64,000 nucleotides of DNA from a phage. Made by a program: the position numbers and the translations under genes. The stretch lies in the NCBI GenBank assembly GCA_018175075.1, contig GCA_018175075.1_4100.1; one strand, given 5' to 3'. This document shows positions 3,680 to 34,802 of this stretch, one piece after another. Each line of letters begins with the position of its first letter. The first letter of the stretch is position 1. The notes under the pieces are model-generated. The model had not been told where the DNA came from. It did no database searches and worked only from the letters and a program-made list of their open reading frames with translations.

Positions 3680-3681
3680 TC

Positions 3682-7456: not shown

Positions 7457-7461
7457 TAAAA

Positions 7462-7494: not shown

Positions 7495-7523
7495 AACTTC
7501 TCAATATAACTGAGGTATCATAT

Positions 7524-7637: not shown

Positions 7638-7645
7638 GGGATATC

Positions 7646-19453: not shown

Positions 19454-20116
19454 ATGATGAAATCAAAATTAGGTTTGTTTTATAAAAACTATTTTGTTAA
19501 ACAACGTAAATTTATAAAAAAATATTTCTCTGGCGAGAAGTCTAGTCCTATAATCTTTAAAAGACCAAGTTATAATACTTACTTAGCTGGTGCTAAACAG
19601 TCTAAGAAATTTATTACTCTTTTACATAAAAACAAAATTAAAGCTTCTTATGTTGAAACGAGAAGAAACTCATCAATAACTCCTGGTGATTTTATTGAGT
19701 ACGGATGTTTCAATATTAAGTACAATGATAATACATACTTTATGGATATTGATTGTAATACATCCAATCTTTTTAACATTGTAGTAAATCCATTAAAACA
19801 ATATAATGTTTATGGTGATTCTATTATCAAATTAATCAAAAACAAAGATAGCTTTGATTTTGAAATAAATGTTTTAGATGATAATTTTGACGAAGTACCA
19901 GTAAACCCTGAAATCTGTGATATTTTAAACAGTTTAAAAGGTAGTACCTACACTATATCATCTGATTTAATGTTTCAGTACTCATTAATCCATAAAGATA
20001 TTGAAAAGTATATTGAATGCTCCAAAATTTTGAATTATCTTTACGATGAATTTAAAAAGAGTTCTAAAATAACCGCATACACTTTGTACAATATTCCTAA
20101 AATGGTGAATCTTTGA
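19454..20116 (+). CDS. hypothetical protein, basic N-terminus
   Basis: 220 aa; AAGGAG SD; last + strand gene, converges on the - strand array. Confidence 0.6.
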   Translation: MMKSKLGLFYKNYFVKQRKFIKKYFSGEKSSPIIFKRPSYNTYLAGAKQSKKFITLLHKNKIKASYVETRRNSSITPGDFIEYGCFNIKYNDNTYFMDIDCNTSNLFNIVVNPLKQYNVYGDSIIKLIKNKDSFDFEINVLDDNFDEVPVNPEICDILNSLKGSTYTISSDLMFQYSLIHKDIEKYIECSKILNYLYDEFKKSSKITAYTLYNIPKMVNL

Positions 20117-20993
20117 CAAATACAGTACTGGCAACTCCACCGTCTGTAACATATTGTCCAGTACTGTAAATTTGTATACCATCGGTTAAGTAAGTTCTGT
20201 ATAAAGTTGCTGTAACATATACGTTATTCATATTCATCTCTATTGGTAGTACACATTTGGTATAGGCTGAGACATCTGTTTGTGTACCTATACCTAATTG
20301 ACCTGCGTTATCGCCTGTGTTATAACCAGTTGCGTAAACACCTAATGAAGTTATAATATGATTAGAAAAATATGAATAACCCACACTGCTTCTTATTATA
20401 TCACCTGGTGCTTGTGTTGTTTGTCTTAACGAAATATATGTTTGTGATGTAGAACCATTTGCTAACTGACCAAAGTATTGTCCACCACCATGATATGCAA
20501 ATAATTTATTACTACTATTATTACTTGCTATAGCAAAAGCGAAGTAACTTGAGTTTGTTGTATAATCTTTCACCGTATAGGTATTAGTTATTTGAGAACA
20601 TAACGTGTACTTTGAATATAACGTCATGTCGGTTGTACCTACGCCTGATATTGCACCAGTATAATACAATCTCCCATCGGTTCCAATAAATCCTTGCATA
20701 AGAAAATTTGCCAGTATTTTGGATGGTGTTACTCCAGTAGGTACTGTTCCTTGTACAAATGATGAAAGTGAATCGGTACTTCTACCATTTCCCAGTTGTC
20801 CATAACTACCATAACCCGTATTCCATATCGTGTTGTCTGTACATAATACGCTTAATGCACCTGCACTAACTGCAATTTGTTTTATTGTTTTTCCAAGTGC
20901 TGTTATCCTATCAAACACTATCTTTGCAGAAGCCCACGTTGTTGACTTATCAGTTGATAAACCGAATGATGCACCATTTCCAGCATACCACAT
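20097..20993 (-). CDS. RCC1-like repeat protein, C-terminal part of a frameshifted gene
   Basis: GYGSYGQLGNG, DNAGQLGIGT; frame stays open upstream of the listed Met to about 21058. Confidence 0.7.
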   Translation of the reverse strand: MWYAGNGASFGLSTDKSTTWASAKIVFDRITALGKTIKQIAVSAGALSVLCTDNTIWNTGYGSYGQLGNGRSTDSLSSFVQGTVPTGVTPSKILANFLMQGFIGTDGRLYYTGAISGVGTTDMTLYSKYTLCSQITNTYTVKDYTTNSSYFAFAIASNNSSNKLFAYHGGGQYFGQLANGSTSQTYISLRQTTQAPGDIIRSSVGYSYFSNHIITSLGVYATGYNTGDNAGQLGIGTQTDVSAYTKCVLPIEMNMNNVYVTATLYRTYLTDGIQIYSTGQYVTDGGVASTVFVKDSPF

Positions 20994-21024
20994 CGTATTA
21001 TCTTTCTTTTTAATTAATGTTGAC

Positions 21025-21249
21025 TCATACCCGAACCCATAGATCTTCTACGTTTGTATTGCACAAAACCCATTTGGTTTGTGTTATAATATTACCTATA
21101 CCCATTTGCCCAAACTCTTGAGAGCCTCTACTGTACAACGTACCATCTGACATAAGGGCAAAAACTGTTGTATCAGATGAAGCTATTTTTGTAACAGAAG
21201 GTTGTATGTTCTTTTTTGATGATGTGATAATTCTTCCAAAGGGTAGCAT
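21025..21249 (-). CDS. RCC1-like repeat protein, N-terminal fragment (MLPF leader)
   Basis: GGAGG SD; MLPFGRIITS...QEFGQMGIGN; ends EDLWVRV* where paralogs continue. Confidence 0.65.
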   Translation of the reverse strand: MLPFGRIITSSKKNIQPSVTKIASSDTTVFALMSDGTLYSRGSQEFGQMGIGNIITQTKWVLCNTNVEDLWVRV

Positions 21250-21320
21250 TGTATCCTCCAAATGTAAATCGTTATTATATTTAGGACAAAAAAATGCCAG
21301 TACAAAATACTGGCTTTATT
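21250..21320 (-). promoter_or_regulatory. RCC1-array cassette (diverged copy)
   Basis: GCCAGTAT-TTT-GTACTGGC hairpin, TATAAT, GGAGG SD. Confidence 0.5.
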
Positions 21321-22526
21321 TTATATACCACGACTGGGTATTTTATATAATTGAAATTTAGTGTAATAATCAGAAACTGTTGTACCTGTCGCTTGTGGGA
21401 TATAGCCACTCAAATACACATCCCCTTGATTATCCATATACACATTTGTACATTCACTTGGACAGAATAACTCGATGCTGCCAACTTTAGGTGCATCAAC
21501 TGGAACTACAAATGTAGTACTTGATGTTGTATTACCGCGACCGAGCCTACCATATGTGTTTATACCACACATATAAAGTGAATTGTTAGTTTTAACCGTA
21601 AGACCACCATATGTTAATGAATTTGATTTCATTATCATATCATCTGATATTGGTAGAGTGGAGATTGTAGATAATACTGTCCCTGATGAAGCGGCTGAAC
21701 CATTACCCAAGTTACCTTCCGATTGAATCCCACTTGCACGAACTGTATATGTATTATTCGTGTTGTGTTTAGATACAACCCATGATGCACTCCCACCAAG
21801 TTCATAATGTATAACAGTATTGTTGGCTAATGCACCCATTTGTGTCCATACTCTAATGTTAGTTTCACCATTACTTATACCAAGTGAACCCCATGTGTTT
21901 TGACCAGTTACCCAAAGTGTTTTATCAATTTTCTGCACAATCACTGCACTTGAACCTGTTTTTACACTATCCACATTCGTATTAATTGAAGTAAATGTTG
22001 ATAATCTTGTGGTTGTGTTATTACCAAAATATCCCTGTGTATTTGCCCCCATTCCATATAGCGTACCATTTTGAAGTAAAACAAAAATACCCTCCCCTAC
22101 AATTTGAATGTCCTTAATTTGCGACAATTGTGTTGCATTGAATACTGATGTAAAATATGAAGTACAATCAGTATAAGTACTGACAGTACTTAATCCTGCA
22201 CCAATAGCTCTACCTACGCCACTGTAATAAAATTTATTATCTTCGGTTTGGATTAAATTAAAAGAACCTTGGGCTGTTCTAAAACGTTTTACATTTTGGT
22301 ATATTAAAGTCCACTCTTTTACTTTCGCATTAGGTACACCATTTCCGAATCCATAGTTTTGTGAACTAGTTCCACCTATACCCATTAAGTCTCCATTTTT
22401 ATATAATAGTAAGAGTGCTGTTGCTGGAATAACTGACGCACTATAACCATTGTAAATAAAGATTTCTTTCACTTCAGGAACTTTCATTTTATTTGCGTAT
22501 TTTATCATCCTTGGAAAAGGTAACAT
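21321..22526 (-). CDS. RCC1-like beta-propeller protein with MLPF leader
   Basis: MLPFPRMIKYAN; NTWGSLGISNG, GINTYGRLGRGN, QSEGNLGNGS. Confidence 0.8.
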   Translation of the reverse strand: MLPFPRMIKYANKMKVPEVKEIFIYNGYSASVIPATALLLLYKNGDLMGIGGTSSQNYGFGNGVPNAKVKEWTLIYQNVKRFRTAQGSFNLIQTEDNKFYYSGVGRAIGAGLSTVSTYTDCTSYFTSVFNATQLSQIKDIQIVGEGIFVLLQNGTLYGMGANTQGYFGNNTTTRLSTFTSINTNVDSVKTGSSAVIVQKIDKTLWVTGQNTWGSLGISNGETNIRVWTQMGALANNTVIHYELGGSASWVVSKHNTNNTYTVRASGIQSEGNLGNGSAASSGTVLSTISTLPISDDMIMKSNSLTYGGLTVKTNNSLYMCGINTYGRLGRGNTTSSTTFVVPVDAPKVGSIELFCPSECTNVYMDNQGDVYLSGYIPQATGTTVSDYYTKFQLYKIPSRGI

Positions 22527-22597
22527 AAAATCCTCCTTTATTCATTATACTATATTTAATCAAAAAGAAAAGCCAGTGTTAAGTACTGGCATAAAAT
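22527..22597 (-). promoter_or_regulatory. RCC1-array cassette: hairpin + promoter + SD
   Basis: mRNA sense GCCAGTACTTAACACTGGC...TTAAATATAGTATAATGAATAAAGGAGG. Confidence 0.6.
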
Positions 22598-23767
22598 CTA
22601 AGCAGAAGGCATATTCTTCATCTTAATAAATGAAAATTGTGTACCAGTATTTGTGGTTTGATCAGTAAAATATGAATTACTCCCAGCCCAGTACAATTCA
22701 TTATTGACTATACAATATATAACAGAACTCGAACTCTGTGAATACACACGACTTATATTTGATTGTTCTACTCCAGTACTGAACTGAACTACCCCCAACT
22801 GTGAACTTGGTATTACATTAGTTGGTCTACCTAAACCGTTAACACCCGCTCCACCACCACATGTATATACTCCAGTACTATCAGTTGATATATTAACATA
22901 ACCATTTCCGGCATTTTCAAATAGTATTTCACTGGGAACAACACCAAATCCTGTAAGATCTATTTTCCTGAATGTAGTGTAAACAGTAGAACCACCAACA
23001 CCTCTTCCACCATAATCATTAGAACCAGCCATATAGATACTATATCCAGAACTTCCTAAACATAATAACTGTACGTTGTCATATAAAATTTGCATAGATA
23101 TAACGTTATCAGGAATACTCAATACCGTAAAAGTAGTTAAAGAAGAACTTCCAATATTACTACCAACCGATGTTCCACATCTGTAGTACTTACCGCCTTT
23201 TATATAATGGAACGATGAACCGCCTAACTTATGTGCTCCTATTTCACTTACCCCAGTATCTATAAGAATGGGAGATACAACTTTGTTATTAACACCTAAC
23301 TCAGATCTACTGTTCATACCGAACCCATATAAACGACCATCTAACATCAATATTAGTGTACTACCTGACGTACCTGCTGACGTAAATTCTATATTCTTTA
23401 TTTGCGACACGTCAATACCTACAAATAATGAAGTTACTTCAGTCCAGTTAACATATGAACCACTAGCCCCAAAATATCCACCCATGTATAGTCCGGCACA
23501 ATATAACTTATTATCAACCGTCTTTATTAATGTACCGGATACACACGCCCAAAAATCATCAACTTCATAGGGTACATGTACCCAACCACCTAATACATCA
23601 CTATCATTCCCTGTTCCTAATTTGTAGTTCGATCCAGAACCACGCATATACATATTCCCTGTACTATAAAGTAATCCGACATGTAATTGACTACCATCCA
23701 ATTTCTTTATTTCGGGAAGAGTTGGTTTAATATTTCCGTACTTTAACATTCTTCCAAAAGGTAACAT
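22598..23767 (-). CDS. RCC1-like beta-propeller protein with MLPF leader
   Basis: start at MLPFGRMLKYGNI behind GGAGG; GSNYKLGTGND, NSRSELGVNN. Confidence 0.8.
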   Translation of the reverse strand: MLPFGRMLKYGNIKPTLPEIKKLDGSQLHVGLLYSTGNMYMRGSGSNYKLGTGNDSDVLGGWVHVPYEVDDFWACVSGTLIKTVDNKLYCAGLYMGGYFGASGSYVNWTEVTSLFVGIDVSQIKNIEFTSAGTSGSTLILMLDGRLYGFGMNSRSELGVNNKVVSPILIDTGVSEIGAHKLGGSSFHYIKGGKYYRCGTSVGSNIGSSSLTTFTVLSIPDNVISMQILYDNVQLLCLGSSGYSIYMAGSNDYGGRGVGGSTVYTTFRKIDLTGFGVVPSEILFENAGNGYVNISTDSTGVYTCGGGAGVNGLGRPTNVIPSSQLGVVQFSTGVEQSNISRVYSQSSSSVIYCIVNNELYWAGSNSYFTDQTTNTGTQFSFIKMKNMPSA

Positions 23768-23845
23768 AATTCCTCCTTTATTCATTATACTATATTTAAT
23801 ACAAATAAGAAAGCCAGTACAAAGTACTGGCATAGTTTTATAGTA
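23768..23845 (-). promoter_or_regulatory. RCC1-array cassette: hairpin + promoter + SD
   Basis: GCCAGTAC-TTT-GTACTGGC then TTAAATATAGTATAATGAATAAAGGAGG. Confidence 0.6.
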
Positions 23846-24955
23846 TTATTTCGGCATTGTAATTGCAGACCATGAGTTCGTGGTAATAGGACCTGGCACA
23901 TACAAAAAAGAACCACAAGCATAAATTTGATTATTACCATCAAATACTATACTAAAATGTGCACATGTGTATAATGCTGATTTTTCTGGGTTGTAATTAT
24001 CTAAAGTTAGTGTATTGGTGAATCTACTCAAACCACCACCAGAACCATTTCTACCAAATTCACCAGTACTGTATATCTTTCCTTCGGTTGTTGCGTACAT
24101 ATTAACATATGAAGTCGCACTTGATTTTGATATTTTATGTATCTTACTATCAATAGTAGTGGAGTTAAATGCAAATGGATATACTTGTGTGTTCGTTGTA
24201 ATACCGTTACCAAGTTGACCAATATACTGCCAACCTGCGTTGTATATATTGCTGGCTGAATAAGCAAGAGTACCAGTACTGTTACCACCAAATAGTTTAA
24301 CACTTGTTAACCTGCTTACTAGTGTAGTATACTGTCCGGGACTTACGCCAAGTGAACCATATCCACTGCTCCCGCAACCGAGAAGTTCATTATTTGATGT
24401 TAATATTAATGTGTTATTCTGTGTACCCAATATATCAAGGACTGTATTAGCTCCGGTATTAACAACTGAAACAAAAGTACTCTGAACCGTGGAATACCCA
24501 CCACCGAGTGAATAGTTACCATTCATGCCTCTACCATAAACAATCGAACCACTAGCATCAACGTAGTGCATTGTATCTGCACCAATTGATATCATTTTAA
24601 TATTAGATATATGTGGAAATGAAGAAGTAACATTCAAACCACCCAACGGAATCATAGTATTTCCTGTGCCTAATTGTGTGGTAACTCCATGCATTATGAA
24701 TTCTTCACCCTTGAGATAAAGAATATTGTACGCACCAGCCCATGCATCAGTAACACCTTCTGAAATTAATATCCAAGTATTTCTTGTTGCTGTATTTTCA
24801 ACGTTTAACTGCAAATACGTATTAACCCCACAACCATAAAGTGAGCCATCGCCATAGAGGACGTACAAATTATCAAGACCGCACAGAACTTTCTTTATCT
24901 TTGGAGCTTCAGGTGCAATATTTCCGTACTTAACCATTCTAGCAAAAGGTAACAT
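23846..24955 (-). CDS. RCC1-like beta-propeller protein with MLPF leader
   Basis: MLPFARMVKYGNI; SGYGSLGVS, QYIGQLGNGIT. Confidence 0.8.
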   Translation of the reverse strand: MLPFARMVKYGNIAPEAPKIKKVLCGLDNLYVLYGDGSLYGCGVNTYLQLNVENTATRNTWILISEGVTDAWAGAYNILYLKGEEFIMHGVTTQLGTGNTMIPLGGLNVTSSFPHISNIKMISIGADTMHYVDASGSIVYGRGMNGNYSLGGGYSTVQSTFVSVVNTGANTVLDILGTQNNTLILTSNNELLGCGSSGYGSLGVSPGQYTTLVSRLTSVKLFGGNSTGTLAYSASNIYNAGWQYIGQLGNGITTNTQVYPFAFNSTTIDSKIHKISKSSATSYVNMYATTEGKIYSTGEFGRNGSGGGLSRFTNTLTLDNYNPEKSALYTCAHFSIVFDGNNQIYACGSFLYVPGPITTNSWSAITMPK

Positions 24956-24965
24956 AAATTCCTCC

Positions 24966-25367
24966 TTAAATTTGTGGCAATTGGTATTCAGTTAAAGTCC
25001 ATGTACCAACAACTGTCCCTACTGGAGACATACCAGTGTAGTATAATTTCCCACTCACATATGCAAATAATGCATTGTCATTCGCAGCAACCAACGATGT
25101 TGACGGATCATAAACTACAGAATTTGGAAATTGTGCTTGGACGAAAATTGAAGCATTATTAGATGAATTGTTACCAAGCTGTCCATAATTATTATACCCT
25201 GTTCCAAAAATACGACTTCCATTTCTATATAATAATCCCCTAGGGTTTTGTGAATATGTTTGTATAAATTCAAAATCGGAAACATTAGTTAATTGTAAAT
25301 AAGTACTTTGTGGCGTTAAAGATATCTTATTAGTATTAGATAGAACACCATTTCCTAATTGTCCGTG
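24966..25367 (-). pseudogene. RCC1-like protein, displaced C-terminal 133 codons of the 25336..26145 gene
   Basis: stop-free frame, no usable ATG: HGQLGNGVLSNT...NNYGQLGNNSS...TLTEYQLPQI*. Confidence 0.65.
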
Positions 25368-26145
25368 AATTTTGTGACCCTACACCATATAGCGGATAAG
25401 TATTATCTACATTAAGAACTATACCCAACATATTGTTATATGAAATTATATCAACTGGGTACTGGCCTGTAGGAAAACTATACTTTGTCCAACTCGTCAA
25501 AGTATCAGTAGCAGAACCAGTTAACAATGTACCAGTACTAGTTTTACCACATCTCCATGCTGAATTATCATTTTTAATTATCCAAGTTGGACTATTGAAA
25601 AATGAACTAACCTTTTTAACATTAATATTAACCTGTGTAAATGATGTAAGTGTAGATGAACTACTACCCAACTCATAGGTTGAATTATCACCTATTGCGT
25701 AAAGAACACTATCATTTGTTAGTAAAAACATATTACGAACATTTGGATATATCTCCTTGATATTATCCACATTAAAACCTGAAAAATAAGACGTACAATC
25801 AACAAATGTAGTACTTTGAACTGCCCTAGATGTACCAGTCCAAAAGTTCCAACCTGCATAATAAAATTTATTATCATTGGTCTGAACTAAGCTATATGAA
25901 GCATTCCTTGTGCACCAAAAATTTTTCACATTTTGCATTAAGCGAACCCATTTGGTCTGTGTCGTTGTATTTCCAAGACCGAATATACCAGCATTGTTAC
26001 CGCCAATACCCCACAAATCACCGTTCTTATACAGAATCATCAATGTGTTGTTGGTAAAAGCCGATGGTGCTTGCATTTTAATTACATTAGATTCATATAC
26101 AGGTGCTATATTCCCGTACTTTAACATTCTCCCAAAAGGTAACAT
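25336..26145 (-). CDS. RCC1-like repeat protein with MLPF leader, truncated by frameshift
   Basis: MLPFGRMLKYGNI; NNAGIFGLGNT, DNSTYELGSSS; ends GVGSQNSRTIRKWCSI* inside a repeat motif. Confidence 0.75.
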   Translation of the reverse strand: MLPFGRMLKYGNIAPVYESNVIKMQAPSAFTNNTLMILYKNGDLWGIGGNNAGIFGLGNTTTQTKWVRLMQNVKNFWCTRNASYSLVQTNDNKFYYAGWNFWTGTSRAVQSTTFVDCTSYFSGFNVDNIKEIYPNVRNMFLLTNDSVLYAIGDNSTYELGSSSSTLTSFTQVNINVKKVSSFFNSPTWIIKNDNSAWRCGKTSTGTLLTGSATDTLTSWTKYSFPTGQYPVDIISYNNMLGIVLNVDNTYPLYGVGSQNSRTIRKWCSI

Positions 26146-26153
26146 ATTCCCTC

Positions 26154-27329
26154 CTATTCCGGTAAAATCATTTTCTTCATTTTAACTTGTTGTGTACCTG
26201 GACTCTGTTCCTGAAACATAGACCCGTTACCACACCAGTACACCTCATTAGTACCCACTAACGCGTATAACACACCAGAACCACCTTGTACTGAAAATGC
26301 ATTAACATCTGGTGCAACATCCATATCCTCATATTGTACCTGGTGGTAATAAGATCTTTCTGATGCAGTAGTAACAGGCCAACCAAGAGGAACACCACTA
26401 CCACATGTATAAAGTTTACCATTCTGTGTCATTGCCATTATAAAATAATTCAAACTGTGATTGTTCATCGACCCAGCATCTGGTATAATACCACTAATTG
26501 CAGGAGTGGTACTAAATGGACTCATGATAATAGTAGTGTCGCCATACCCTATTCCTAAACAATAATCAGTGTTTTTTCCAGCAGTATATACATTAATCTT
26601 ATTTCTATTGGATGTAAGTACTGAAGTGGTTTCAGGAGTACATGAAATACCAATAACTGTTCCAGATATATCAGTACTTACTGTAAATGTGGATAGTTTA
26701 GATGAACTTGAACCTAGGTTATAACTTGCATTATTACCACATCTGTAATATTGTCCATTTTTTACAAAATGGAAAGCACCACCCGACTGTGTTCCTGCGA
26801 TTAAAGTAACACCCGTGTTAATCAAAATAGGTGTTGATTTTATTCCAGTAACACCCAATTCACCCCCAGCATTACGGCCTATCCCATATAAGTTACCATC
26901 ACTTAACAGAATTAACAAAGAACCATTGGATGCGGTAGTTTCGGTAGAAGCTATATCTTGAACTGTAGTAAGGCTTGGAATTGTAGACAATATAGATGTA
27001 ATATTAGTCCATCCGGGAACAGGTGATGCAGATACACCGACATAGTTCATTTGCCCTGCTAAGTAAAATTCTCCGTCAGTCGTAAGTATAATTGTCCCTG
27101 CGAATAAACACCAAACATTAGAAACTTTATATGGACACTGTACCCACCCATTTTGTACATACTCCGTACTATTATTTCCTAGCCTATAATGTGCACCACT
27201 TCCACGTAGATATAAGTTACCACTATCAAATAACATACCCATATGTGATGACGATGTACTAATCTTTAATACACCAGAAGGTGCAGGTTTAATATTTCCA
27301 TACTTAACCATTCTTGCAAAAGGTAACAT
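26154..27329 (-). CDS. RCC1-like beta-propeller protein with MLPF leader
   Basis: start at MLPFARMVKYGNI; GAHYRLGNNS, RNAGGELGVTG. Confidence 0.8.
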   Translation of the reverse strand: MLPFARMVKYGNIKPAPSGVLKISTSSSHMGMLFDSGNLYLRGSGAHYRLGNNSTEYVQNGWVQCPYKVSNVWCLFAGTIILTTDGEFYLAGQMNYVGVSASPVPGWTNITSILSTIPSLTTVQDIASTETTASNGSLLILLSDGNLYGIGRNAGGELGVTGIKSTPILINTGVTLIAGTQSGGAFHFVKNGQYYRCGNNASYNLGSSSSKLSTFTVSTDISGTVIGISCTPETTSVLTSNRNKINVYTAGKNTDYCLGIGYGDTTIIMSPFSTTPAISGIIPDAGSMNNHSLNYFIMAMTQNGKLYTCGSGVPLGWPVTTASERSYYHQVQYEDMDVAPDVNAFSVQGGSGVLYALVGTNEVYWCGNGSMFQEQSPGTQQVKMKKMILPE

Positions 27330-27399
27330 ATTTCCTCCTTTATTCATTATACTATATTTAATCAAAAAGAAAAGCCAGTACTCTGTACTGGCCTATATT
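27330..27399 (-). promoter_or_regulatory. RCC1-array cassette: hairpin + promoter + SD
   Basis: same ~70-bp cassette. Confidence 0.6.
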
Positions 27400-28137
27400 T
27401 TAGACTGAATTGTTAGGATAATATCTCCCACGTCCCCATATTATTCGCACAGCACCACCACCAGCAGCCGTATAAGAAAAATTATCCCATATACTACCAC
27501 CACCACCATACATCTTACCAGCACCACCACTACCAGCACCACCATTATATGAACCATCGTATCTACCGCCAATACCATTAGCACCTTGAACAATGATACC
27601 AGTACCACCACCCGTACCAATGAACGAGGTATTATAGAATGCACCACCACCACCGCCGCCGCCAGCACCATTTTCACCAGTGATTGCATCTCCGTTACCA
27701 CCTTTACCAGTGTAGCCACCAGCACCACCACCAATGACTGCACCACCACTTACACCAGCGTTGCCCCCATTACCACCACCATCATTAATAGCGTTAGCAG
27801 CTTTCCCACCTAGTCCACCAACCCTATATTCACCAGTGAAGCTAACACATAGTTTTTCAGTTCCACGATATAAACCGTTTTCAACTGCTGTAGTAGTGTT
27901 GGGATGTGTAAGAGAAACACTTAAGTACTCACCACTAGTAACCGGAATATTATTACGCCACGATAAGCCGCCACCAGCACCACGTTGACCACCCGGCGAA
28001 ATAACACATACTGATATTTCGGTAACGCCAGCAGGAACTGTAAATTGTGTTGTTCCTATTGTCGTGATTAATTGTTCACCATGTGGCTTATATTCAATTT
28101 TATTCCCGTACTTAACCATTCTTCCAAAAGGTAACAT
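27400..28137 (-). CDS. glycine-rich (Gly_rich-type) protein with the same MLPF leader
   Basis: MLPFGRMVKYGN; FTVPAGVTEISVCVISPGGQRGAGGG then GGxGG tracts; no RCC1 motifs. Confidence 0.75.
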   Translation of the reverse strand: MLPFGRMVKYGNKIEYKPHGEQLITTIGTTQFTVPAGVTEISVCVISPGGQRGAGGGLSWRNNIPVTSGEYLSVSLTHPNTTTAVENGLYRGTEKLCVSFTGEYRVGGLGGKAANAINDGGGNGGNAGVSGGAVIGGGAGGYTGKGGNGDAITGENGAGGGGGGGAFYNTSFIGTGGGTGIIVQGANGIGGRYDGSYNGGAGSGGAGKMYGGGGSIWDNFSYTAAGGGAVRIIWGRGRYYPNNSV

Positions 28138-28210
28138 AATTCCCTCCTTTATTCATTATAATATATTTAATACAAAAAAGAAAAGCCAGTACTCTGTACT
28201 GGCTTTTACA
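28138..28210 (-). promoter_or_regulatory. RCC1-array cassette: hairpin + promoter + SD
   Basis: same ~70-bp cassette. Confidence 0.6.
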
Positions 28211-29401
28211 TTACAATTGTCTAGGTGTATCCAGTACATATCTATTTGTACGAGGACCACCATCATCATGCGTTCCGGTTGAATATATATTTTTCATATC
28301 AGCAGTTAGGAAAGTACGATACGAACCGCGATATATTTTAATTTTATCATACATAGAATATGTTATTCCTGACGGCAATGGACATGCAGTAAATTTACCA
28401 ATGGTAACATTAGAACCAACACCTAATGTACCAGCATAACCACTCGCATTTAAACCAGTTGCATATACACCTGTACTCGTAACTAGTATACTAGATTGTG
28501 ATGCATATCCAGTATGGATTGAATAATAAGTTCCTGATGGTAATGTAGTACTATTATTCCCTAATACTGCTAGTGCTGTACTATTCGTAGTGTTATTACC
28601 CCATGCCCCATTATTAGCTAATCCACCAACTAGAAACTGACGTGCTCCTGTATTTGGATTCTCCACTAAAGCACTGACAGCACCAAATGAACAAACAGTA
28701 TATTGTAATGTTTTTGTATATGTGGTACTTGGCTTATACAAAGTATATTCATTAAATGGTGTCCATGTGGTACTAGTACTTATGCCAGATGTACTACCAC
28801 CAATATATAAATTATTTTGTGTATCAAAAAACATTGCACAGTAATTTGTTGACTGTATTTGTGCAATATCTACATCTGGTGTTACCGCTTTAACAAATGA
28901 ACCATCTGATATTTGATAAGTAGTTCCTGTACCATCTGCGAATTGTCTAGCACTATTCCACCCTGTACTCCATATTGTATTATTATCCATTAAGAAAGTA
29001 AACCACGTAGTACCTGCATACATCTGTTTAATTGAAGTACTTGAACTTTGTGTGTACAAATTTTCAATATATTGGTTATAACTTAAAAATGATGTAGTAC
29101 TAGTTTCTAAACCAATATGACTACCATATCCACAATAAAAATAATTTAAGTCATTATCTTGTACTAACAAAGTTCCTTGTGTCATCCAGCAATCTTTGAC
29201 ATTTTCTCTAATTAATGTCCACGACCTTACTGCATTATTATTTCCTCTACCAAACTTCCCATAACTATTACTGCCTCGTGCGTATAGTTGACCGTCGGTA
29301 TAAAGTACAACAACCTCAGTATCAGTTGGTATTATTTTCTTAATTTGTAGTGGTACAGGCACAATATTCCCATAATTCATCATTCTTGCAAAAGGTAACA
29401 T
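28211..29401 (-). CDS. RCC1-like beta-propeller protein with MLPF leader
   Basis: MLPFARMMNYGNI; SNSYGKFGRGNN, GYAGTLGVGS. Confidence 0.8.
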   Translation of the reverse strand: MLPFARMMNYGNIVPVPLQIKKIIPTDTEVVVLYTDGQLYARGSNSYGKFGRGNNNAVRSWTLIRENVKDCWMTQGTLLVQDNDLNYFYCGYGSHIGLETSTTSFLSYNQYIENLYTQSSSTSIKQMYAGTTWFTFLMDNNTIWSTGWNSARQFADGTGTTYQISDGSFVKAVTPDVDIAQIQSTNYCAMFFDTQNNLYIGGSTSGISTSTTWTPFNEYTLYKPSTTYTKTLQYTVCSFGAVSALVENPNTGARQFLVGGLANNGAWGNNTTNSTALAVLGNNSTTLPSGTYYSIHTGYASQSSILVTSTGVYATGLNASGYAGTLGVGSNVTIGKFTACPLPSGITYSMYDKIKIYRGSYRTFLTADMKNIYSTGTHDDGGPRTNRYVLDTPRQL

Positions 29402-29472
29402 AATTCCCCTCCTTATTCATTATACTATATTTAATACAAATAAGAAAGCCAGTATCAAGTACTGGCCTATAT
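29402..29472 (-). promoter_or_regulatory. RCC1-array cassette: hairpin + promoter + SD
   Basis: same ~70-bp cassette. Confidence 0.6.
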
Positions 29473-30642
29473 TTAAACTGGCGAATCTAATATAAATTCT
29501 AAACTACTAATGCCACCATATGTGACATCTGTTCCCGTGCTATATACAAAATTACCATCAGTTATATAAGTTCGGTTATAACTACCTGCCATCTGTGACT
29601 TACTATAATCAAACCCATCAGGTACGATTGCTTTGGTATATACTAATGCATTAGTAGATGTACCAATACCTAACATACCAGCTTGTGTAGATTGATTGTA
29701 GCCGCAACAATATATACCATCTGTTGTAGCAATAACTTGGTTATAATATGAAGTATTGTTAGCAATGCTTACTACATCACCAGGTGGCATTAGTGATGCT
29801 GTTTGTACCTCAAATGCTCTATAATCTTTGAGAGAACCATCTTTCCCATCTGCTTGTGCACCAAATATTCTTGAACCACCATTTGCGATGATAGTTTTAC
29901 CAGTGGGATCAGTGCCTATTGCCATTGCCATTGAAGTACCATTATTCACATAGTACTTTATATTAATTGTATTACTTAAGCTGGTAGGAGCACCATAATA
30001 TATATTATATAACTTACTTCCTGAACTTGTAACTGCATTGACTCTTCCTGTATAAAATAACCATCCTTGGTTTGTAACATAACCGTGCATTAAATTACTT
30101 GCAAACAATTTAACAGGTAATTGATTTGCTGCGGTAGGAACAGTACTTTTGACGAATCTACCAGAAACATGGTTAATTGTTGTCCCATCACCCAACTGAC
30201 CATCCGACCCTACTCCAGTACTCCATATTGTTTGGTCTGATAGTAACACACTTGTAGTCTGATAACTAACGGCTATATCTAATATTGGTAATGTTAATGT
30301 ATTGAATATAGGCATAGCAGATGTCCATATTGATACTCCTGACCCTTTCATACCAACAGTTGTTGAACTTCCACTGTACCATATTTCATTATTGCTTTTC
30401 TTAACAACTATCGACGTGGCACCCATCCAAAAATCTTCAACACCAGAAGTACTAAAAGTCCATGTAGTAACAGTATTTTTGTGACCTAAACCCAAAATAC
30501 CATATGCATTATCACCACGCACATATAAATCACCACTGTTTGTTAAAACAGCAACATTATAGTTGTTAGCAAGTATTTTTTTAATATTTGGTTTATCAGG
30601 TGCAATATTCCCGTACTTAAACATCCTCGCAAAAGGTAACAT
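29473..30642 (-). CDS. RCC1-like beta-propeller protein with MLPF leader
   Basis: MLPFARMFKYGNI; DNAYGILGLGH, GSDGQLGDGT, TQAGMLGIGT. Confidence 0.8.
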   Translation of the reverse strand: MLPFARMFKYGNIAPDKPNIKKILANNYNVAVLTNSGDLYVRGDNAYGILGLGHKNTVTTWTFSTSGVEDFWMGATSIVVKKSNNEIWYSGSSTTVGMKGSGVSIWTSAMPIFNTLTLPILDIAVSYQTTSVLLSDQTIWSTGVGSDGQLGDGTTINHVSGRFVKSTVPTAANQLPVKLFASNLMHGYVTNQGWLFYTGRVNAVTSSGSKLYNIYYGAPTSLSNTINIKYYVNNGTSMAMAIGTDPTGKTIIANGGSRIFGAQADGKDGSLKDYRAFEVQTASLMPPGDVVSIANNTSYYNQVIATTDGIYCCGYNQSTQAGMLGIGTSTNALVYTKAIVPDGFDYSKSQMAGSYNRTYITDGNFVYSTGTDVTYGGISSLEFILDSPV

Positions 30643-30711
30643 ATTTCCTCCTTATTCATTATACTATATTTAATACAAATAAGAATGCCAGTATCAAGTA
30701 CTGGCATTATG
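30643..30711 (-). promoter_or_regulatory. RCC1-array cassette: hairpin + promoter + SD
   Basis: same ~70-bp cassette. Confidence 0.6.
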
Positions 30712-31821
30712 TTATTTTGGTAAATCAATTTTAGTAAAGACTGCAACATCTGCACTTGCACCTGGAATGGCGTAATACGATCCAGTACTATATACATTCC
30801 CGTCTTTGGTTAATAATGATGTTAATCCGTCACTAAAAGCAACATCACTAATCTCACTAACTTCTACAGGTAATTGTAAATTAGCAGCACTATAGATAGC
30901 ACCCGTTTGAGAATTGTTTAATCCCAAACCACGGTTTCCCCCAATACCTTTCTGATATGCACTAGTTAATATAATTTGCGTAGCCGTGCTTGTTGCCTCT
31001 GAATTTGTCATAAACAAAGGTGAATTATTAGGTAAAGTACTTACAGGAACTGCTTTGAATGTAGTTGAATCTGAACTAAGAAAGTTTGGAGTTGTACCAC
31101 ATGTGAAATATGATGTACCATTATAGTAATTGAGTGTATGTCCACCAATAGCTGCATCTATTACACCAGAACTACGCAGTCCCCAAATGTTAACTTGTGT
31201 TCTGTTCCCTGTGCCATGTAATCCACGGTCATTCCACCCTGAACTATATAACTTATTATCTATGCTAATATACATACTATCATTAGGAGTAGACATAACT
31301 TTACGCACATTAGAAGCACATAGTGTTAATGTATATATTGATGAAGAACCAATCCCCAATACACCACGGTATCCATTAGCCCCAGCACCATAGAGTACTG
31401 AACTTGAACTTAGTACAAATATTACACCACTATTGCATACAATATTAGCAATTTGATTCACTGGTATTGTATTTGTAAACCACTCGGTTCTATCAACTAA
31501 TGTAGTACTGTAAGAAGTAGTTGTAGAAGATGTGAACCAGTACGTTTGACCTGATGTCCATATCGTATTATCATTTTTAATAATAACAAGTGTTCGTCCT
31601 CCAGTGAAAAAATTAGAAACATCTGCACTTACTAATATCCATGAAGATACCGTGTTGGTATTACCATTTCCAGATTCACCACCTTGATTTCTGCCTATGT
31701 AATACAATTCATGTGAATCAGTCAATACGAATTGACCTTGAGTAGAAGCACCAACTTTAATTATATTTTTAGGACCAGAGGTAATATTCCCATAATCAAA
31801 TAGTCTTACAAAAGGTAACAT
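30712..31821 (-). CDS. RCC1-like beta-propeller protein with MLPF leader
   Basis: start at MLPFVRLFDYGNI behind GGAGGG; RNQGGESGNGNT, NGYRGVLGIGS. Confidence 0.8.
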   Translation of the reverse strand: MLPFVRLFDYGNITSGPKNIIKVGASTQGQFVLTDSHELYYIGRNQGGESGNGNTNTVSSWILVSADVSNFFTGGRTLVIIKNDNTIWTSGQTYWFTSSTTTSYSTTLVDRTEWFTNTIPVNQIANIVCNSGVIFVLSSSSVLYGAGANGYRGVLGIGSSSIYTLTLCASNVRKVMSTPNDSMYISIDNKLYSSGWNDRGLHGTGNRTQVNIWGLRSSGVIDAAIGGHTLNYYNGTSYFTCGTTPNFLSSDSTTFKAVPVSTLPNNSPLFMTNSEATSTATQIILTSAYQKGIGGNRGLGLNNSQTGAIYSAANLQLPVEVSEISDVAFSDGLTSLLTKDGNVYSTGSYYAIPGASADVAVFTKIDLPK

Positions 31822-31829
31822 ATTCCCTC

Positions 31830-33032
31830 CTATTGTTGCCATAACTGCGTTGGCATTAATGTTAGTGTAGTAATACTATAAGTGCCATCAGGCAATCTAC
31901 CACCATTACCATTCCAGCCACCACATGCATATAATTTATAATCTTTAGTAATTATTATGGTTCTGCTCCAATCTTTAGATGCCATAAGAACATTGTCATA
32001 ACCACCACTTATTGCACTAAGATTAAAAATAGCCCAAGTCTTAACTAATGTATTAGTTCCATTACCTTCTTGACCATATGAGTTAGGACCACTACTTCTA
32101 ACATATGGTGCGTATTGTGCCATAGGTGAACCAATTGATGCATTTCCCATATTACTTGGACAAATAAAATTACTGTACTTACTTACATCAACCGTGACCG
32201 ATGTATTCCTAATTGGTGTTAGCTGATTTACTGATGTAGTCGTACCATTACCAGCTTGTCCAGTATTGTTAGACCCACTATAATATACAGGCCCACCAGT
32301 AGTAAACCACCAAGTAACATTGTATGTAGTACTAATATGTTCTACATTACTAATCACGAATTTGTTCAAATATACAACAGAACTACCACCACATCCACTT
32401 TCACCAAAGTTATCCTTACCACAAAACCATGCATCTTTATTTGATTTAATATAGTGCGTTCCTTGTAATGAACATGCCATATCTATAACTTCACCCATAT
32501 TAGTCATAACTGTTAGTGTAGGGATTGAATTTTGATTACCCGACCCACATTCACCATTAGTATTTTTTCCACACGCAATTACTCTACCATCTGTTAATAA
32601 TATTCTAGTACTTTCACCTATATATACACTCTTGATCATATTAGCCATTACGCCAATTTTATTAAATGAAGCAGTAACATCAGTCCATGTTCTCAAATAA
32701 CCACTAACAGGTGTTGCATCTCCATAATCAGAAAATGCACCCACCGACCCAGTGTAGTATATTTTATTATCCAAATCAACCATCAATGAACCATGAACAC
32801 CCAGCCAATAGGCTGCACAGTTACGTGCAAGTACAGTAAATGACGGAACTGCTGCTGAATTCCCAAGACCAAATTGAGACATGTTATTACTACCATAACC
32901 ATATAAAGTATTAGTTGGGCTATGTAGATACATACAGTTTGTATAATGTTGTTGTAAAACATCTGAGAACTCTATAGGTTCTGGCCCTGGTGCAATATTA
33001 CCGTACTTAACCATTCTAGCAAAAGGTAACAT
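31830..33032 (-). CDS. RCC1-like beta-propeller protein with MLPF leader
   Basis: MLPFARMVKYGNI; NNMSQFGLGN, NNTGQAGNGT, NSYGQEGNGT. Confidence 0.8.
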   Translation of the reverse strand: MLPFARMVKYGNIAPGPEPIEFSDVLQQHYTNCMYLHSPTNTLYGYGSNNMSQFGLGNSAAVPSFTVLARNCAAYWLGVHGSLMVDLDNKIYYTGSVGAFSDYGDATPVSGYLRTWTDVTASFNKIGVMANMIKSVYIGESTRILLTDGRVIACGKNTNGECGSGNQNSIPTLTVMTNMGEVIDMACSLQGTHYIKSNKDAWFCGKDNFGESGCGGSSVVYLNKFVISNVEHISTTYNVTWWFTTGGPVYYSGSNNTGQAGNGTTTSVNQLTPIRNTSVTVDVSKYSNFICPSNMGNASIGSPMAQYAPYVRSSGPNSYGQEGNGTNTLVKTWAIFNLSAISGGYDNVLMASKDWSRTIIITKDYKLYACGGWNGNGGRLPDGTYSITTLTLMPTQLWQQ

Positions 33033-33104
33033 ATTTCCCTCCTTTATTCATTATATTATATTTAATCAAAAATAAAAGCCAGTACTTGAGTACTGGCATA
33101 TCAA
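33033..33104 (-). promoter_or_regulatory. RCC1-array cassette: hairpin + promoter + SD
   Basis: same ~70-bp cassette. Confidence 0.6.
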
Positions 33105-34271
33105 TTACGAAAAACGTGGATCATCAAGAACAAACACGGTACTACTTGGACCACCTTGTGTGGTGACAGCACTAGTACTGTAAAGAAAGTTACCATCTGT
33201 CATATAAGTTCTACGATTCGTACAAATAACTCTTACTTTATTCATATCGATATCAGGATTAGGTAATGGACATGAAGTATACACTGATACATCAGTACTT
33301 GTTCCTATTCCCAGCGTACCTTCATTTGTGGTTGAACCGCTATTCAACCCACTAGCATATATACCACTGCTTGTAATAACAAAAGTGGCGTAGAATGGAG
33401 AACCTTCACCTATATTTAATTTAGTTCCAGGTGGTTGTCTTGCCGCAGCAACCGCACCATATGCTTTCCCACCAGATGTGGCAAGATTACCAAGAGCACC
33501 ATACTGTTGTTGTCCACCATTATACACTGTGTTAGTGCCATCACTGTTAGTGTGGATACCAATAGAATTATAGTTACTGTTGCTATATACTAAAGCGGCA
33601 TTAGAAGTAACTGTATTTCGTGTATATACTTTATATTGTTGGGTAAAATTACCACTAGTGGACGTACCCTGTACAGTTCCAGTGTAGTATATATATCCGT
33701 CTGTACCAATGAATGAGTGCATAACACTACCTGCAAAAATTTTTTCTGGAGTAACACCTGACGGTATTGTTGATTGTACAAATCTACCCACTACATTTGT
33801 TGTTGTATTATTTCCCAATTGACCGGAGTCACCATAACCACTTGACCATATGGTATTGTTCTCAAGAAGAACACTAATTGATAATCTTGATAAAGCTATT
33901 TCTTTAACATCACTTTCTAATGTATCAAAAAATGAAGTACAATTTGTCCAAGTGTTCACTACGCTAGAACTAACACCAATTTGTTTATTATCACCAGAAC
34001 TATAATAATTCCCATCATATGTTTGTATAAGTATAACAGAACCACCAACCCATACTTTATCAACTGAACCAAACGTTCTTGTCCATGTGGTAACTATATC
34101 CCCGCTATTATTACCCAATCCAAAGCAACCACTACTATCTACGCCTCGTACATATAAATCTCCTGAAGTCATCAGAACTGCACAGAATGATTGTGCACCT
34201 TTAACATCTTTAATTGGCTCTGGTTCAGGTGCAACATTTCCATAATCAAACATTCTAACAAAAGGTAACAT
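33105..34271 (-). CDS. RCC1-like beta-propeller protein with MLPF leader
   Basis: start at MLPFVRMFDYGNV; DSSGCFGLGNN, GDSGQLGNNT, NEGTLGIGT. Confidence 0.8.
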   Translation of the reverse strand: MLPFVRMFDYGNVAPEPEPIKDVKGAQSFCAVLMTSGDLYVRGVDSSGCFGLGNNSGDIVTTWTRTFGSVDKVWVGGSVILIQTYDGNYYSSGDNKQIGVSSSVVNTWTNCTSFFDTLESDVKEIALSRLSISVLLENNTIWSSGYGDSGQLGNNTTTNVVGRFVQSTIPSGVTPEKIFAGSVMHSFIGTDGYIYYTGTVQGTSTSGNFTQQYKVYTRNTVTSNAALVYSNSNYNSIGIHTNSDGTNTVYNGGQQQYGALGNLATSGGKAYGAVAAARQPPGTKLNIGEGSPFYATFVITSSGIYASGLNSGSTTNEGTLGIGTSTDVSVYTSCPLPNPDIDMNKVRVICTNRRTYMTDGNFLYSTSAVTTQGGPSSTVFVLDDPRFS

Positions 34272-34319
34272 ATTTCCTCCTTTATTCATTATATCATATT
34301 TACCCCATAAACAAAACCC

Positions 34320-34348
34320 TTGACAACCTTCCAGTACTGGTGTACTAT
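34320..34348 (+). promoter_or_regulatory. sigma70-type promoter of the small-gene array (divergent from RCC1 array)
   Basis: TTGACA-N17-TACTAT, CAGTACTGG in the spacer. Confidence 0.55.
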
Positions 34349-34373
34349 AGAAGGAATATAAGGAGAACTACAC

Positions 34374-34601
34374 ATGACAAATACTCTTAAGTACTACATT
34401 AATACTCTAAATGAACTAGAGTACGCGAAGTTTCTCGCGGATAGTTCGTGGCTAATTGAGCTAAAAAATTATAATAGTCCAGGATGCACCCTTATGATGA
34501 ACAATGCAATTGATACCCTCATTGTGAGTATTTTACACAGCAACATCTGCGGGGATAGAAACAAACAATTATCAAAAATCTTAGTACTGCTATCTATATG
34601 A
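34374..34601 (+). CDS. small protein, YY/LIYRY tandem family
   Basis: 75 aa; AAGGAG SD after the 34320 promoter; MTNTLKYYINTL... Confidence 0.6.
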   Translation: MTNTLKYYINTLNELEYAKFLADSSWLIELKNYNSPGCTLMMNNAIDTLIVSILHSNICGDRNKQLSKILVLLSI

Positions 34602-34801: not shown

Positions 34802-34802
34802 T

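What the first reader, a model, noticed from the sequence alone, without database searches (positions are those of the whole stretch)
27400..28137. A non-RCC1 glycine-rich protein carries the same leader, so the leader is a portable module
Gene 27400..28137 begins MLPFGRMVKYGN. It continues as ..FTVPAGVTEISVCVISPGGQRGAGGG followed by long GGxGG tracts. That is the pattern of Gly_rich-type domains seen in some phage fibre-like proteins, and there is no RCC1 motif. It sits inside the array between two identical cassettes. Two unrelated folds sharing the tag is the strongest argument that the 13-mer is an addressing or docking signal and not part of the propeller.
Basis: partly seen in the sequence, partly recalled or inferred. 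Interest (0 to 1): 0.6.

Follow-up and report, generated by a model that had tools for sequence, protein, structure and literature searches.

The report
Shared docking tag on phage adhesins
A giant E. coli phage puts the same 12-amino-acid N-terminal tag on a glycine-rich, fibre-tip-type binding protein and on its eleven RCC1-like propeller genes; in related phages the tag sits on at least three further protein types, nearly all of which are found in the virus particle, so it most likely acts as a plug that fixes interchangeable binding modules to the virion.

Summary
ORF 27400..28137 (minus strand, 245 aa) starts MLPFGRMVKYGN. It has no RCC1 signal and lies inside an array of RCC1-like genes that carry the same tag.

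The tag is predicted to be disordered in both the glycine-rich protein and an RCC1-like neighbour, with the fold starting at residue 20. Synonymous codons vary under the conserved residues, and genes that lack the promoter cassette still keep the tag.

In related phages (CBB, GAP32, Yersinia fHe-Yen9-04, uncultured contigs) the tag also heads Kelch propellers, LamG lectins and other small proteins. Published virion proteomics detect 9 of 11 tagged CBB proteins, including the glycine-rich homolog CBB_144, and 8 tagged phAPEC6 proteins. Two CBB virion peptides include tag residues, so at least tag residues 7–12 survive in the mature particle, unlike a cleaved T4 targeting sequence.

The docking partner is unknown.

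The parts
27400..28137 (-). Gene for the 245-aa glycine-rich virion accessory protein (ortholog of 121Q gp243); stop codon at 27400-27402
   Evidence: ORF and translation. 99.6% identical to 121Q gp243, and full-length matches in 18 Asteriusvirus records. PHROG 4474, function unknown.
28102..28137 (-). Codons 1-12: the shared N-terminal tag MLPFGRMVKYGN
   Evidence: Same 12-mer pattern on 11 complete genes in the window. pLDDT about 52 with no secondary structure. Synonymous variation at P3, Y10 and G11 across 56 copies.
28081..28101 (-). Codons 13-19: variable linker (KIEYKPH) between tag and fold
   Evidence: The first beta-strand starts at residue 20 in the AlphaFold model. The RCC1-like neighbour has the same layout.
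27838..28080 (-). Codons 20-100: TNF-like beta-sandwich (approximate boundary)
27403..27837 (-). Codons 101-245: polyglycine 'brush' / glycine-rich domain (39% Gly), ending in the conserved AVRIIWG...P motif
28138..28210 (-). Upstream cassette: terminator hairpin of the preceding gene (28181-28207), AT-rich promoter-like stretch (TATAATGAATAAA) and Shine-Dalgarno site
   Evidence: Terminator scan: 6 found against 1.3 expected. Repeat families D2-D4. Alignment of upstream regions.
27372..27394 (-). Intrinsic terminator hairpin downstream of the glycine-rich gene; same hairpin core as the one upstream
33105..34271 (-). Tagged RCC1-like paralog (MLPFVRMFDYGN), first gene of the array
31830..33032 (-). 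Tagged RCC1-like paralog (MLPFARMVKYGN)
30712..31821 (-). Tagged RCC1-like paralog (MLPFVRLFDYGN); it has no promoter/terminator cassette upstream and abuts the preceding gene
29473..30642 (-). Tagged RCC1-like paralog (MLPFARMFKYGN)
28211..29401 (-). Tagged RCC1-like paralog (MLPFARMMNYGN). In the AlphaFold model, residues 1-12 have pLDDT below 50 and lie outside the propeller.
26154..27329 (-). Tagged RCC1-like paralog (MLPFARMVKYGN). The true start is the ATG at 27329, not the TTG at 27365.
25336..26145 (-). Tagged, shorter (269 aa) RCC1-like paralog with no cassette upstream. Its phAPEC6 ortholog gp007 is detected in virions.
23846..24955 (-). Tagged RCC1-like paralog with no cassette upstream
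22598..23767 (-). Tagged RCC1-like paralog (MLPFGRMLKYGN)
21321..22526 (-). Tagged RCC1-like paralog with the variant tag MLPFPRMIKYAN
20097..21249 (-). Frameshift-split RCC1-like gene with a degenerate tag (MLPFGRIITSSKK); last member of the array
   Evidence: Split in the same way in 121Q, as genes 235 and 234.

Best explanation
The gene encodes a small accessory virion protein, probably expressed late, built in three parts. Residues 1-12 (MLPFGRMVKYGN) are a flexible tag. Residues 13-19 are a short linker. Residues 20-245 form a TNF-like sandwich plus a polyglycine 'brush' domain, the kind of domain that forms the host-binding tip of phage fibres.

The tag is a portable virion-docking element. 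It is retained on the mature protein and most likely binds a common site on the particle, plausibly as an added beta-strand, since residues 2, 4, 8 and 10 are hydrophobic or aromatic and alternate with other residues. In this way many unrelated binding modules (RCC1-like and Kelch propellers, LamG lectins, the glycine-rich brush) are displayed from one kind of socket. The terminator-promoter-RBS-tag cassette repeated between genes provides homology for swapping or duplicating cargo genes.

Shown here: the gene, the tag and its conservation; the fold; the unrelatedness of the cargo proteins; the predicted disorder of the tag; and selection acting at the protein level.

Shown by published proteomics: virion association of most tagged proteins in CBB and phAPEC6, and survival of tag residues in mature virions.

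Inferred: docking to a common site, an exterior location, host-surface binding, and late expression.

For: The tag lies outside the fold in two unrelated proteins: pLDDT 52 and 45 for residues 1-10, with the first strand at residue 20 in both.

Selection acts on the protein. In 56 copies P3 is CCA 28 / CCT 24, Y10 is TAC 38 / TAT 18, and G11 is GGG 23 / GGA 19 / GGT 10. Upstream DNA is unrelated between genera. Three window genes lack the promoter cassette and keep the tag.

Portability. Phage CBB has at least 11 tagged genes: glycine-rich, three Kelch, LamG-type (two above the Pfam cut-off, one weak) and four with no Pfam match. Other contigs of 355-371 kb add a 168-aa family and RCC1+Kelch double propellers.

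Virion association. 9 of 11 tagged CBB proteins are among the 55 detected by MS out of 554 ORFs (Fisher p = 2e-8). CBB_144, the glycine-rich homolog, has 5 peptides and 34% coverage. phAPEC6 gp003, 005, 006, 007, 009, 010, 549 and 551 are all tagged and all detected. GAP32 gp001 is tagged and is a structural protein by MS.

Retention. The CBB virion peptides R.LFEYANVIIPPNYK (CBB_536 residues 7-20) and K.YANVIVEYATK (CBB_548 residues 10-20) contain tag residues.

Co-variation within genomes. In metagenomic contig L042 the glycine-rich ortholog and the adjacent RCC1-like gene both start MIPFARIVKYGN.
Against: No docking partner has been identified and no structure shows the tag bound.

The glycine-rich protein of this phage lineage has never been detected in virions. 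The gene is mis-annotated in phAPEC6, so it was probably absent from that MS database, if the database was built from the annotated ORFs. Its virion status rests on CBB_144, which is only 36% identical over 129 residues.

Residues 1-6 of the tag were not observed in any peptide, so trimming of the extreme N-terminus is not excluded.

Virion MS does not separate the outside of the particle from the inside.

The invariance of M-L-P-F and Y-[GA]-N in the cross-genus set is partly due to how the set was collected, because those positions were in the search pattern.

Within one genome, gene conversion could contribute to tag identity.
Confidence: 0.6

Rival explanations
1. The tag is a capsid-targeting sequence of the T4 internal-protein type. 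It directs diverse proteins into the prohead, and they end up inside the head (inner body, DNA-associated or ejected proteins), as the 'DNA condensation protein' annotation and the phAPEC6 authors' suggestion imply.
For: Like the T4 internal-protein locus (general knowledge of T4), this is a short N-terminal tag shared by otherwise unrelated proteins in a variable locus. The tagged proteins are in the virion. phAPEC6 has an inner body of unknown composition, and its authors proposed the RCC1-like proteins for it. These phages encode a T4-like prohead protease.
Against: Tag residues 7-20 and 10-20 occur in peptides from mature CBB virions, whereas T4 targeting sequences are cut off. There is no conserved Glu or protease motif after the tag. 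The cargo folds are the kinds used for surface binding: a TNF-like plus polyglycine brush known from fibre tips and an extracellular receptor, LamG lectins and Kelch propellers. The proteins are not basic, with pI 4.9-9.3 and K+R about 5-8%.
Confidence: 0.15
2. The conserved start is a nucleic-acid feature. It is part of a duplicated terminator-promoter-RBS-start cassette, kept uniform by tandem duplication, gene conversion or translation-initiation needs, and the peptide itself has no function.
For: Within the window, ATG TTA CCT TTT is invariant at the DNA level, and the repeat runs from the terminator through the first 36 nt of coding sequence. In L042 the two neighbouring genes share both RBS and start sequence.
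Against: Synonymous codons vary at P3, F4, R6, Y10, G11 and N12 while the amino acids stay the same. Upstream sequences differ completely between genera while the peptide persists. Three window genes without the cassette keep the tag. The paralog bodies have diverged to 16-32% identity while the tag is invariant. Presence of the tag tracks virion incorporation.
Confidence: 0.07
3. The tag is recognised by an assembly factor rather than by the virion itself. Candidates are a chaperone, or a phage-encoded protease or adaptor that controls folding, timing or turnover of these proteins.
For: Fibre-tip glycine-rich domains often need dedicated chaperones, for example Pam3 gp25. CBB encodes ClpS-like and ClpP-like proteins. 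The tag is exposed and disordered.
Against: Known fibre chaperones bind the distal fold, not an N-terminal peptide. It is hard to see why propellers, lectins and brush domains would share one chaperone. Retention of the tag in virions and the strong link with virion presence are explained more simply by docking.
Confidence: 0.1
4. The tagged proteins polymerise head-to-tail. The tag of one subunit inserts into the next, as in donor-strand exchange, and this forms the long hair-like whiskers seen on phAPEC6 and CBB.
For: The tag has alternating hydrophobic or aromatic residues at positions 2, 4, 8 and 10. Hairs of about 119 nm with small terminal globules are seen in CBB, and hairs are also seen in phAPEC6; their proteins are unidentified.
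Against: Both modelled cargo domains are complete, confident folds with no obvious missing strand. Very different folds would all need an acceptor groove. MS coverage of each tagged protein is low, which does not fit a major filament subunit.
Confidence: 0.05

Closest known systems
Cyanophage Pam3 tail fibre gp24 (PDB 7YPX)
   Different: Only 17% identity. Pam3 gp24 docks through a folded, trimerising alpha-helical N-terminal domain. Here that is replaced by a 12-residue disordered tag plus a 7-residue linker. Pam3 has a single fibre gene, whereas here the protein is one of about 12 tagged paralogous or unrelated modules.
Mycobacteriophage Bxb1 gp33 'tail wing brush' (PDB 9D93)
   Different: A Gram-positive-type host and a siphovirus. 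It attaches via gp30/gp31 and has no MLPF tag. It is not part of a multi-fold tagged family.
T4 internal-protein capsid targeting sequence (general knowledge of T4 biology, not tested here)
   Same: An N-terminal tag of about 10 residues shared by otherwise unrelated proteins encoded in a variable locus. The tag determines incorporation into the particle.
   Different: The T4 tag is removed by the prohead protease and its cargo is inside the head. Here tag residues persist in mature virions, there is no protease motif, and the cargo folds are surface-binding types.
gp38-type adhesins of T2/S16-like phages
   Different: gp38 has a folded N-terminal attachment domain and a beta-helix instead of a TNF-like sandwich. 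It has one partner (gp37) and no family-wide short tag.
Pfam PF21722 (Gly_rich_2) glycine-rich domain proteins
   Same: The window protein is linked by phmmer to 194 homologs, many of which carry PF21722. 22 of the 72 aligned sequences hit the model.
   Different: The window protein itself does not reach any Pfam threshold. Most family members lack the MLPF tag.
Conserved N-terminal anchor domains of multi-tailspike phages such as CBA120, G7C and RaK2/K64-1 branched fibres (general knowledge, not tested here)
   Same: The logic is the same: a conserved N-terminal attachment element with an exchangeable C-terminal host-binding module, and several such proteins per virion.
   Different: Those anchors are folded domains of tens to hundreds of residues and the cargo is usually trimeric beta-helix enzymes. 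Here the element is 12 residues and the cargo is small propellers, lectins and brush domains.

Membership tests
RCC1-like beta-propeller (the family of the neighbouring genes) | RCC1 repeat / RCC1-like domain signal in the sequence | tested here: not met
   Pfam gives 0 families at E<=0.1 for the glycine-rich protein, while all six neighbours scanned hit PF25390, most of them also PF00415 or PF13540. BLASTP against the neighbour aligns only residues 1-12 meaningfully.
RCC1-like beta-propeller (the family of the neighbouring genes) | Seven-bladed propeller fold | tested here: not met
Glycine-rich 'brush' domain proteins (PF21722 / TNF-like + polyglycine domain) | Sequence match to PF21722 above threshold | tested here: inconclusive
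   The window protein has no hit. 22 of the 72 aligned sequences hit PF21722 (best E 3.8e-13), and the query reaches such proteins with phmmer E down to about 1e-17.
Glycine-rich 'brush' domain proteins (PF21722 / TNF-like + polyglycine domain) | TNF-like beta-sandwich followed by stacked glycine-rich loops (GGGxGG motifs, about 40% Gly) | tested here: met
Glycine-rich 'brush' domain proteins (PF21722 / TNF-like + polyglycine domain) | Binds a host surface receptor | not testable with these tools
   Inferred only from structural relatives.
T4-type capsid targeting sequence | Short N-terminal sequence shared by otherwise unrelated virion proteins | tested here: met
   with virion MS.
T4-type capsid targeting sequence | Removed by the prohead protease at a conserved site during maturation | tested here: not met
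   Peptides covering tag residues 7-20 (CBB_536) and 10-20 (CBB_548) are in the mature-virion peptide report. There is no conserved Glu or cleavage motif after the tag. Residues 1-6 were not observed, so the test covers residues 7 onward only.
T4-type capsid targeting sequence | Cargo located inside the head | not testable with these tools
   The MS data do not resolve location.
Modular receptor-binding proteins with a conserved N-terminal virion anchor | Conserved N-terminus with variable C-terminal binding modules, several per genome | tested here: met
   11 complete tagged genes plus one frameshifted copy in the window, at least 11 in CBB, and 5-8 in other jumbo contigs, with at least 5 cargo families.
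Modular receptor-binding proteins with a conserved N-terminal virion anchor | Proteins are components of the virion | tested here: met
   Published MS detects 9 of 11 in CBB and 8 in phAPEC6, plus GAP32 gp001. For the glycine-rich protein this is shown only through its CBB homolog.
Modular receptor-binding proteins with a conserved N-terminal virion anchor | The anchor is a folded domain that binds an identified virion partner | tested here: not met
   The tag is 12 residues and is predicted to be disordered in isolation. No partner has been identified.

The most novel reading that the evidence does not exclude
The 12-residue tag is a universal plug. Through it, Rak2-like jumbo phages (Asteriusvirus, Mimasvirus, Eneladusvirus) load a changeable set of a dozen small binding modules onto the hair-like whiskers that cover the tail and capsid of phAPEC6 and CBB. 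The tagged proteins would be the 'tiny terminal globular structures' seen on the CBB hairs. If so, the system is a combinatorial adhesin display, and any protein could be attached to the virion by adding 12-20 residues.
Probability: 0.25. Interest if true: 0.8.

Novelty: new variant of a known kind. Interest (0 to 1): 0.62.

Why it matters
The result gives a concrete, testable reading of a gene family that is annotated in more than 30 jumbo-phage genomes as 'regulator of chromosome condensation / DNA condensation protein', a label the evidence here does not support. It names candidate proteins for the unexplained hairs on phAPEC6 and CBB. It also shows that six CBB virion proteins singled out by that phage's authors as absent from GAP32 all share one N-terminal tag.

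If the tag is sufficient for incorporation, it would be a very small handle for displaying foreign proteins on a large phage particle. It would also explain how these phages exchange host-binding modules by recombination between repeated cassettes.

The glycine-rich protein on its own is an ordinary member of a widespread fibre-tip domain family. The interest lies in the tag.

Tried and rejected
- Direct Pfam scan of the glycine-rich protein found nothing. Family assignment had to go through homologs and structure.
- A profile search of PDB sequences gave only a chance-level galectin hit, E 0.11.
- The 'degenerate propeller' idea is rejected.
- A cleaved, T4-like targeting peptide is rejected for residues 7 onward. 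Searching the CBB peptide report for MLPF or LPFS found nothing, so the status of residues 1-6 stays open.
- A Sec or lipoprotein signal was considered and dropped, because the tag has no hydrophobic core.
- tblastn with CBB_144 to look for a tagged glycine-rich gene in Eneladusviruses returned only CBB and Asteriusviruses, probably because of low-complexity masking. BFVD does list a similar protein in Erwinia phage pEa_SNUABM_47, but its N-terminus could not be read.
- Comparing the conservation of the array with a flanking 15 kb was only weakly informative. The best single-record coverage was 36% for the array and 95% for the flank, but the flank is itself variable.
- Full-text searches for the tag strings found no paper.
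- Probable chance pattern hits were set aside: two identical 548-aa proteins on 20-23 kb contigs, a 197-aa protein, and several ORFs under 30 aa.

Full report
**What is there.** The window (36% G+C) is a piece of an Asteriusvirus, the 121Q / PBECO4 / phAPEC6 group of roughly 350-kb 'Rak2-like' jumbo coliphages. ORF 27400..28137 lies on the minus strand and encodes 245 aa starting MLPFGRMVKYGN. It has a strong Shine-Dalgarno site upstream. It is 99.6% identical to 121Q gp243 ('hypothetical protein'), and 18 Asteriusvirus records match it over its full length at 85-99.6% identity.

The gene sits in a minus-strand array (20097..34271) of RCC1-like genes. Ten of these are complete and start with the same motif, MLPFxR[ML]xxY[GA]N. 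A further copy is frameshifted and has a degenerate tag. Pfam finds RCC1 / RCC1-like domains in every neighbour tested and nothing in the glycine-rich protein. BLASTP between the glycine-rich protein and its neighbour aligns only the first 12 residues.

**The tag.** Among the ten RCC1-like paralogs, identity to the reference paralog is 16-32% overall, yet M1 L2 P3 F4 R6 Y10 N12 are invariant. AlphaFold predicts the tag to be disordered and outside the fold in both the glycine-rich protein (mean pLDDT 52 for residues 1-10) and an RCC1-like neighbour (residues 1-12 below 50). In both models the first strand starts at residue 20.

Within the window the first four codons are identical at the DNA level, and the repeat extends upstream through the RBS, an AT-rich promoter-like stretch and a terminator hairpin. 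Three observations argue that selection acts on the peptide:
- Codons for R6, Y10 and G11 vary synonymously within the window. Across 56 copies from several phages, P3, F4, Y10, G11 and N12 all use alternative codons.
- Three window genes (starts at 31821, 26145 and 24955) have no promoter/terminator cassette and still carry the tag.
- In other genera the upstream DNA is unrelated while the peptide persists.

One caveat applies: M-L-P-F and Y-[GA]-N were part of the search pattern, so their invariance in the cross-genus set is partly built in.

**Portability beyond the window.** Degenerate DNA pattern scans of viral contigs found the tag almost only in jumbo contigs of 348-378 kb. These include 121Q, Pectobacterium phage CBB, GAP32, a 357-kb and a 355-kb contig, Yersinia phage fHe-Yen9-04 and uncultured relatives.

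In 121Q every hit lies in the array, so the glycine-rich gene is the only non-RCC1 cargo found in that genome. CBB has no RCC1-like genes, according to its authors. It still has at least 11 tagged genes:
- CBB_144, glycine-rich, MLPFSPLIVYGN, 36% identical to the window protein;
- CBB_247, a weak LamG match below the Pfam cut-off;
- CBB_536, 537, 549 and 553, with no Pfam match;
- CBB_548 and 551, LamG;
- CBB_550, 552 and 554, Kelch.

Other contigs add a 168-aa family, a 202-aa protein, and 667-676-aa proteins in which RCC1-like and Kelch propellers follow one tag.

Two short metagenomic contigs show the glycine-rich gene embedded among tagged RCC1-like genes in more distant relatives. In L042 the glycine-rich ortholog (58% identity) and the next, RCC1-like gene both begin MIPFARIVKYGN, so the tag variant co-varies across folds within a genome. 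A third contig (L038) has a LamG gene, a 69-aa gene and a glycine-rich gene starting MFPLPII / MLPFPII / MLPFPIM. Homologs of the glycine-rich domain in unrelated phages, such as PVP-SE1 gp018, lack the tag.

**Link to the virion.** Published ESI-MS/MS of CBB virions detected 55 of 554 proteins (PMC5259590). Nine of the 11 tagged proteins are among them: CBB_144, 247, 536, 537, 548, 549, 551, 552 and 553 (Fisher p = 2e-8). The six virion proteins that the CBB authors singled out as absent from GAP32 (144, 247, 536, 537, 551, 552) are all tagged.

In phAPEC6, eight 'DNA condensation' or hypothetical proteins of the array (gp003, 005, 006, 007, 009, 010, 549, 551) were detected in virions (PMC7247149), and all carry the tag. 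The glycine-rich gene is not annotated in that record. gp004 there is a wrong-frame ORF inside it, so, if the MS database was built from the annotated ORFs, it was probably not searched for. GAP32 gp001 is tagged and RCC1-like, and is reported as a structural protein by MS.

The CBB peptide report contains R.LFEYANVIIPPNYK.V (CBB_536 residues 7-20) and K.YANVIVEYATK.F (CBB_548 residues 10-20). The tag is therefore still on the mature protein, at least from residue 7.

**Mechanism.** The simplest reading is a retained, flexible N-terminal docking peptide that fixes diverse small binding modules to a shared site on the particle. The repeated intergenic cassette plus tag would serve as a recombination handle for gaining, losing and duplicating modules.

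An exterior, host-binding role is favoured for three reasons. The cargo folds are brush domains, LamG lectins and propellers. The glycine-rich domain is known from fibre tips and tail-tip accessory proteins. The proteins are not basic (pI 4.9-9.3), which does not fit the 'DNA condensation' label.

phAPEC6 and CBB carry unexplained hair-like fibres on tail and capsid, and the CBB hairs have small terminal globules. The tagged proteins are plausible components, but nothing tested here shows that. GAP32 also has tagged proteins and has not been reported to be hairy.

Four rivals are scored in the report: a T4-like capsid-targeting role, a purely nucleic-acid constraint, recognition by an assembly factor, and donor-strand polymerisation.

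**Novelty.** The glycine-rich protein is a new member of a known domain family. A conserved N-terminal attachment element with exchangeable binding modules is a familiar design in phages, and a short shared targeting tag is known from T4 internal proteins. What is different here is a 12-residue, retained, apparently unstructured tag shared by at least five unrelated cargo families across three genera of jumbo phages. No paper in the searchable library contains the tag strings, and the phAPEC6 and CBB papers do not mention a shared N-terminus. I rate it a new variant of a known kind, with moderate to high interest.

Noticed in passing
window 20097-21249 (minus strand): The last array member is split by a frameshift. 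A 74-codon ORF starts at 21249 with a degenerate tag (MLPFGRIITSSKK, no YGN) and RCC1-like sequence. The 298-aa RCC1-like ORF 20097-20993 follows in another frame. 121Q annotates the same split as genes 235 and 234. It is probably a decaying copy.
   Followed up: partly
window 27365, 31842, 23833, 34289 (mechanical ORF starts) versus 27329, 31821, 23767, 34271: The longest-ORF starts are over-extended. Every array gene has a GGAGG site 5-8 nt before the tag ATG. Genes starting at 31821, 26145 and 24955 have no terminator/promoter cassette and abut the preceding gene, so they are probably co-transcribed with it.
   Followed up: partly
proteins P0005-P0116; locus L036 7879-9372: 33 of the 120 listed glycine-rich homologs from other phages start with a different short motif, M[LI]E[LMT][LM] (MLELL, MIELL, MLETL and similar). 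In L036 two such paralogs sit in tandem just upstream of a terminase-portal-capsid module. This may be a second class of N-terminal tag on the same domain.
   Followed up: partly
L004 (phAPEC6, MK817115.1) 7325-8059, 2434 and 6063: The phAPEC6 GenBank record does not annotate the glycine-rich gene; gp004 is a wrong-frame ORF inside it. Two further tagged RCC1-like genes are also unannotated, and gp002 is called from an upstream start. The record ends also duplicate gp550/gp551 as the first genes.
   Followed up: partly
L010 6413-8416, L026 1903-3933, L030 140-2161: Proteins of 667-676 aa in uncultured relatives carry one tag followed by an RCC1-like propeller and then a Kelch propeller. This was confirmed by Pfam for the L010 protein; the other two are grouped with it by BLAST clustering and size.
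   Followed up: partly
upstream of the first genes of arrays: window about 34300, L015, L016, L010, L023, L026, L011, L017: A GGTAAATA(C/T) motif lies about 25-35 nt upstream of the start codon in several genera. It resembles the ATAAATA late-promoter consensus proposed for CBB and GAP32 structural genes. Inside the window array the cassettes have TTAAATATAGTATAATGAATAAA instead.
   Followed up: no
window 21321-34271 and annotations in related records: The array genes are annotated in public records as 'regulator of chromosome condensation', 'DNA condensation protein', 'S-layer protein', 'Ig domain-containing protein' or 'X-linked retinitis pigmentosa GTPase regulator'. Their near-neutral pI (4.9-9.3) and their virion association suggest these names are misleading.
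   Followed up: partly
L003 (121Q) 1-3805, corresponding to the window just beyond 34.3 kb: Next to the array, on the opposite strand, 121Q has a run of about 17 tiny genes of 180-230 nt each, plus one of 672 nt. They look like another tandem paralog family of unknown function.
   Followed up: no
window 20000-35000 versus related genomes: No related phage record covers more than 36% of the 15-kb array at megablast level, although the genomes are otherwise reported as 95-99% identical. The array is a hotspot of gene turnover.
   Followed up: partly
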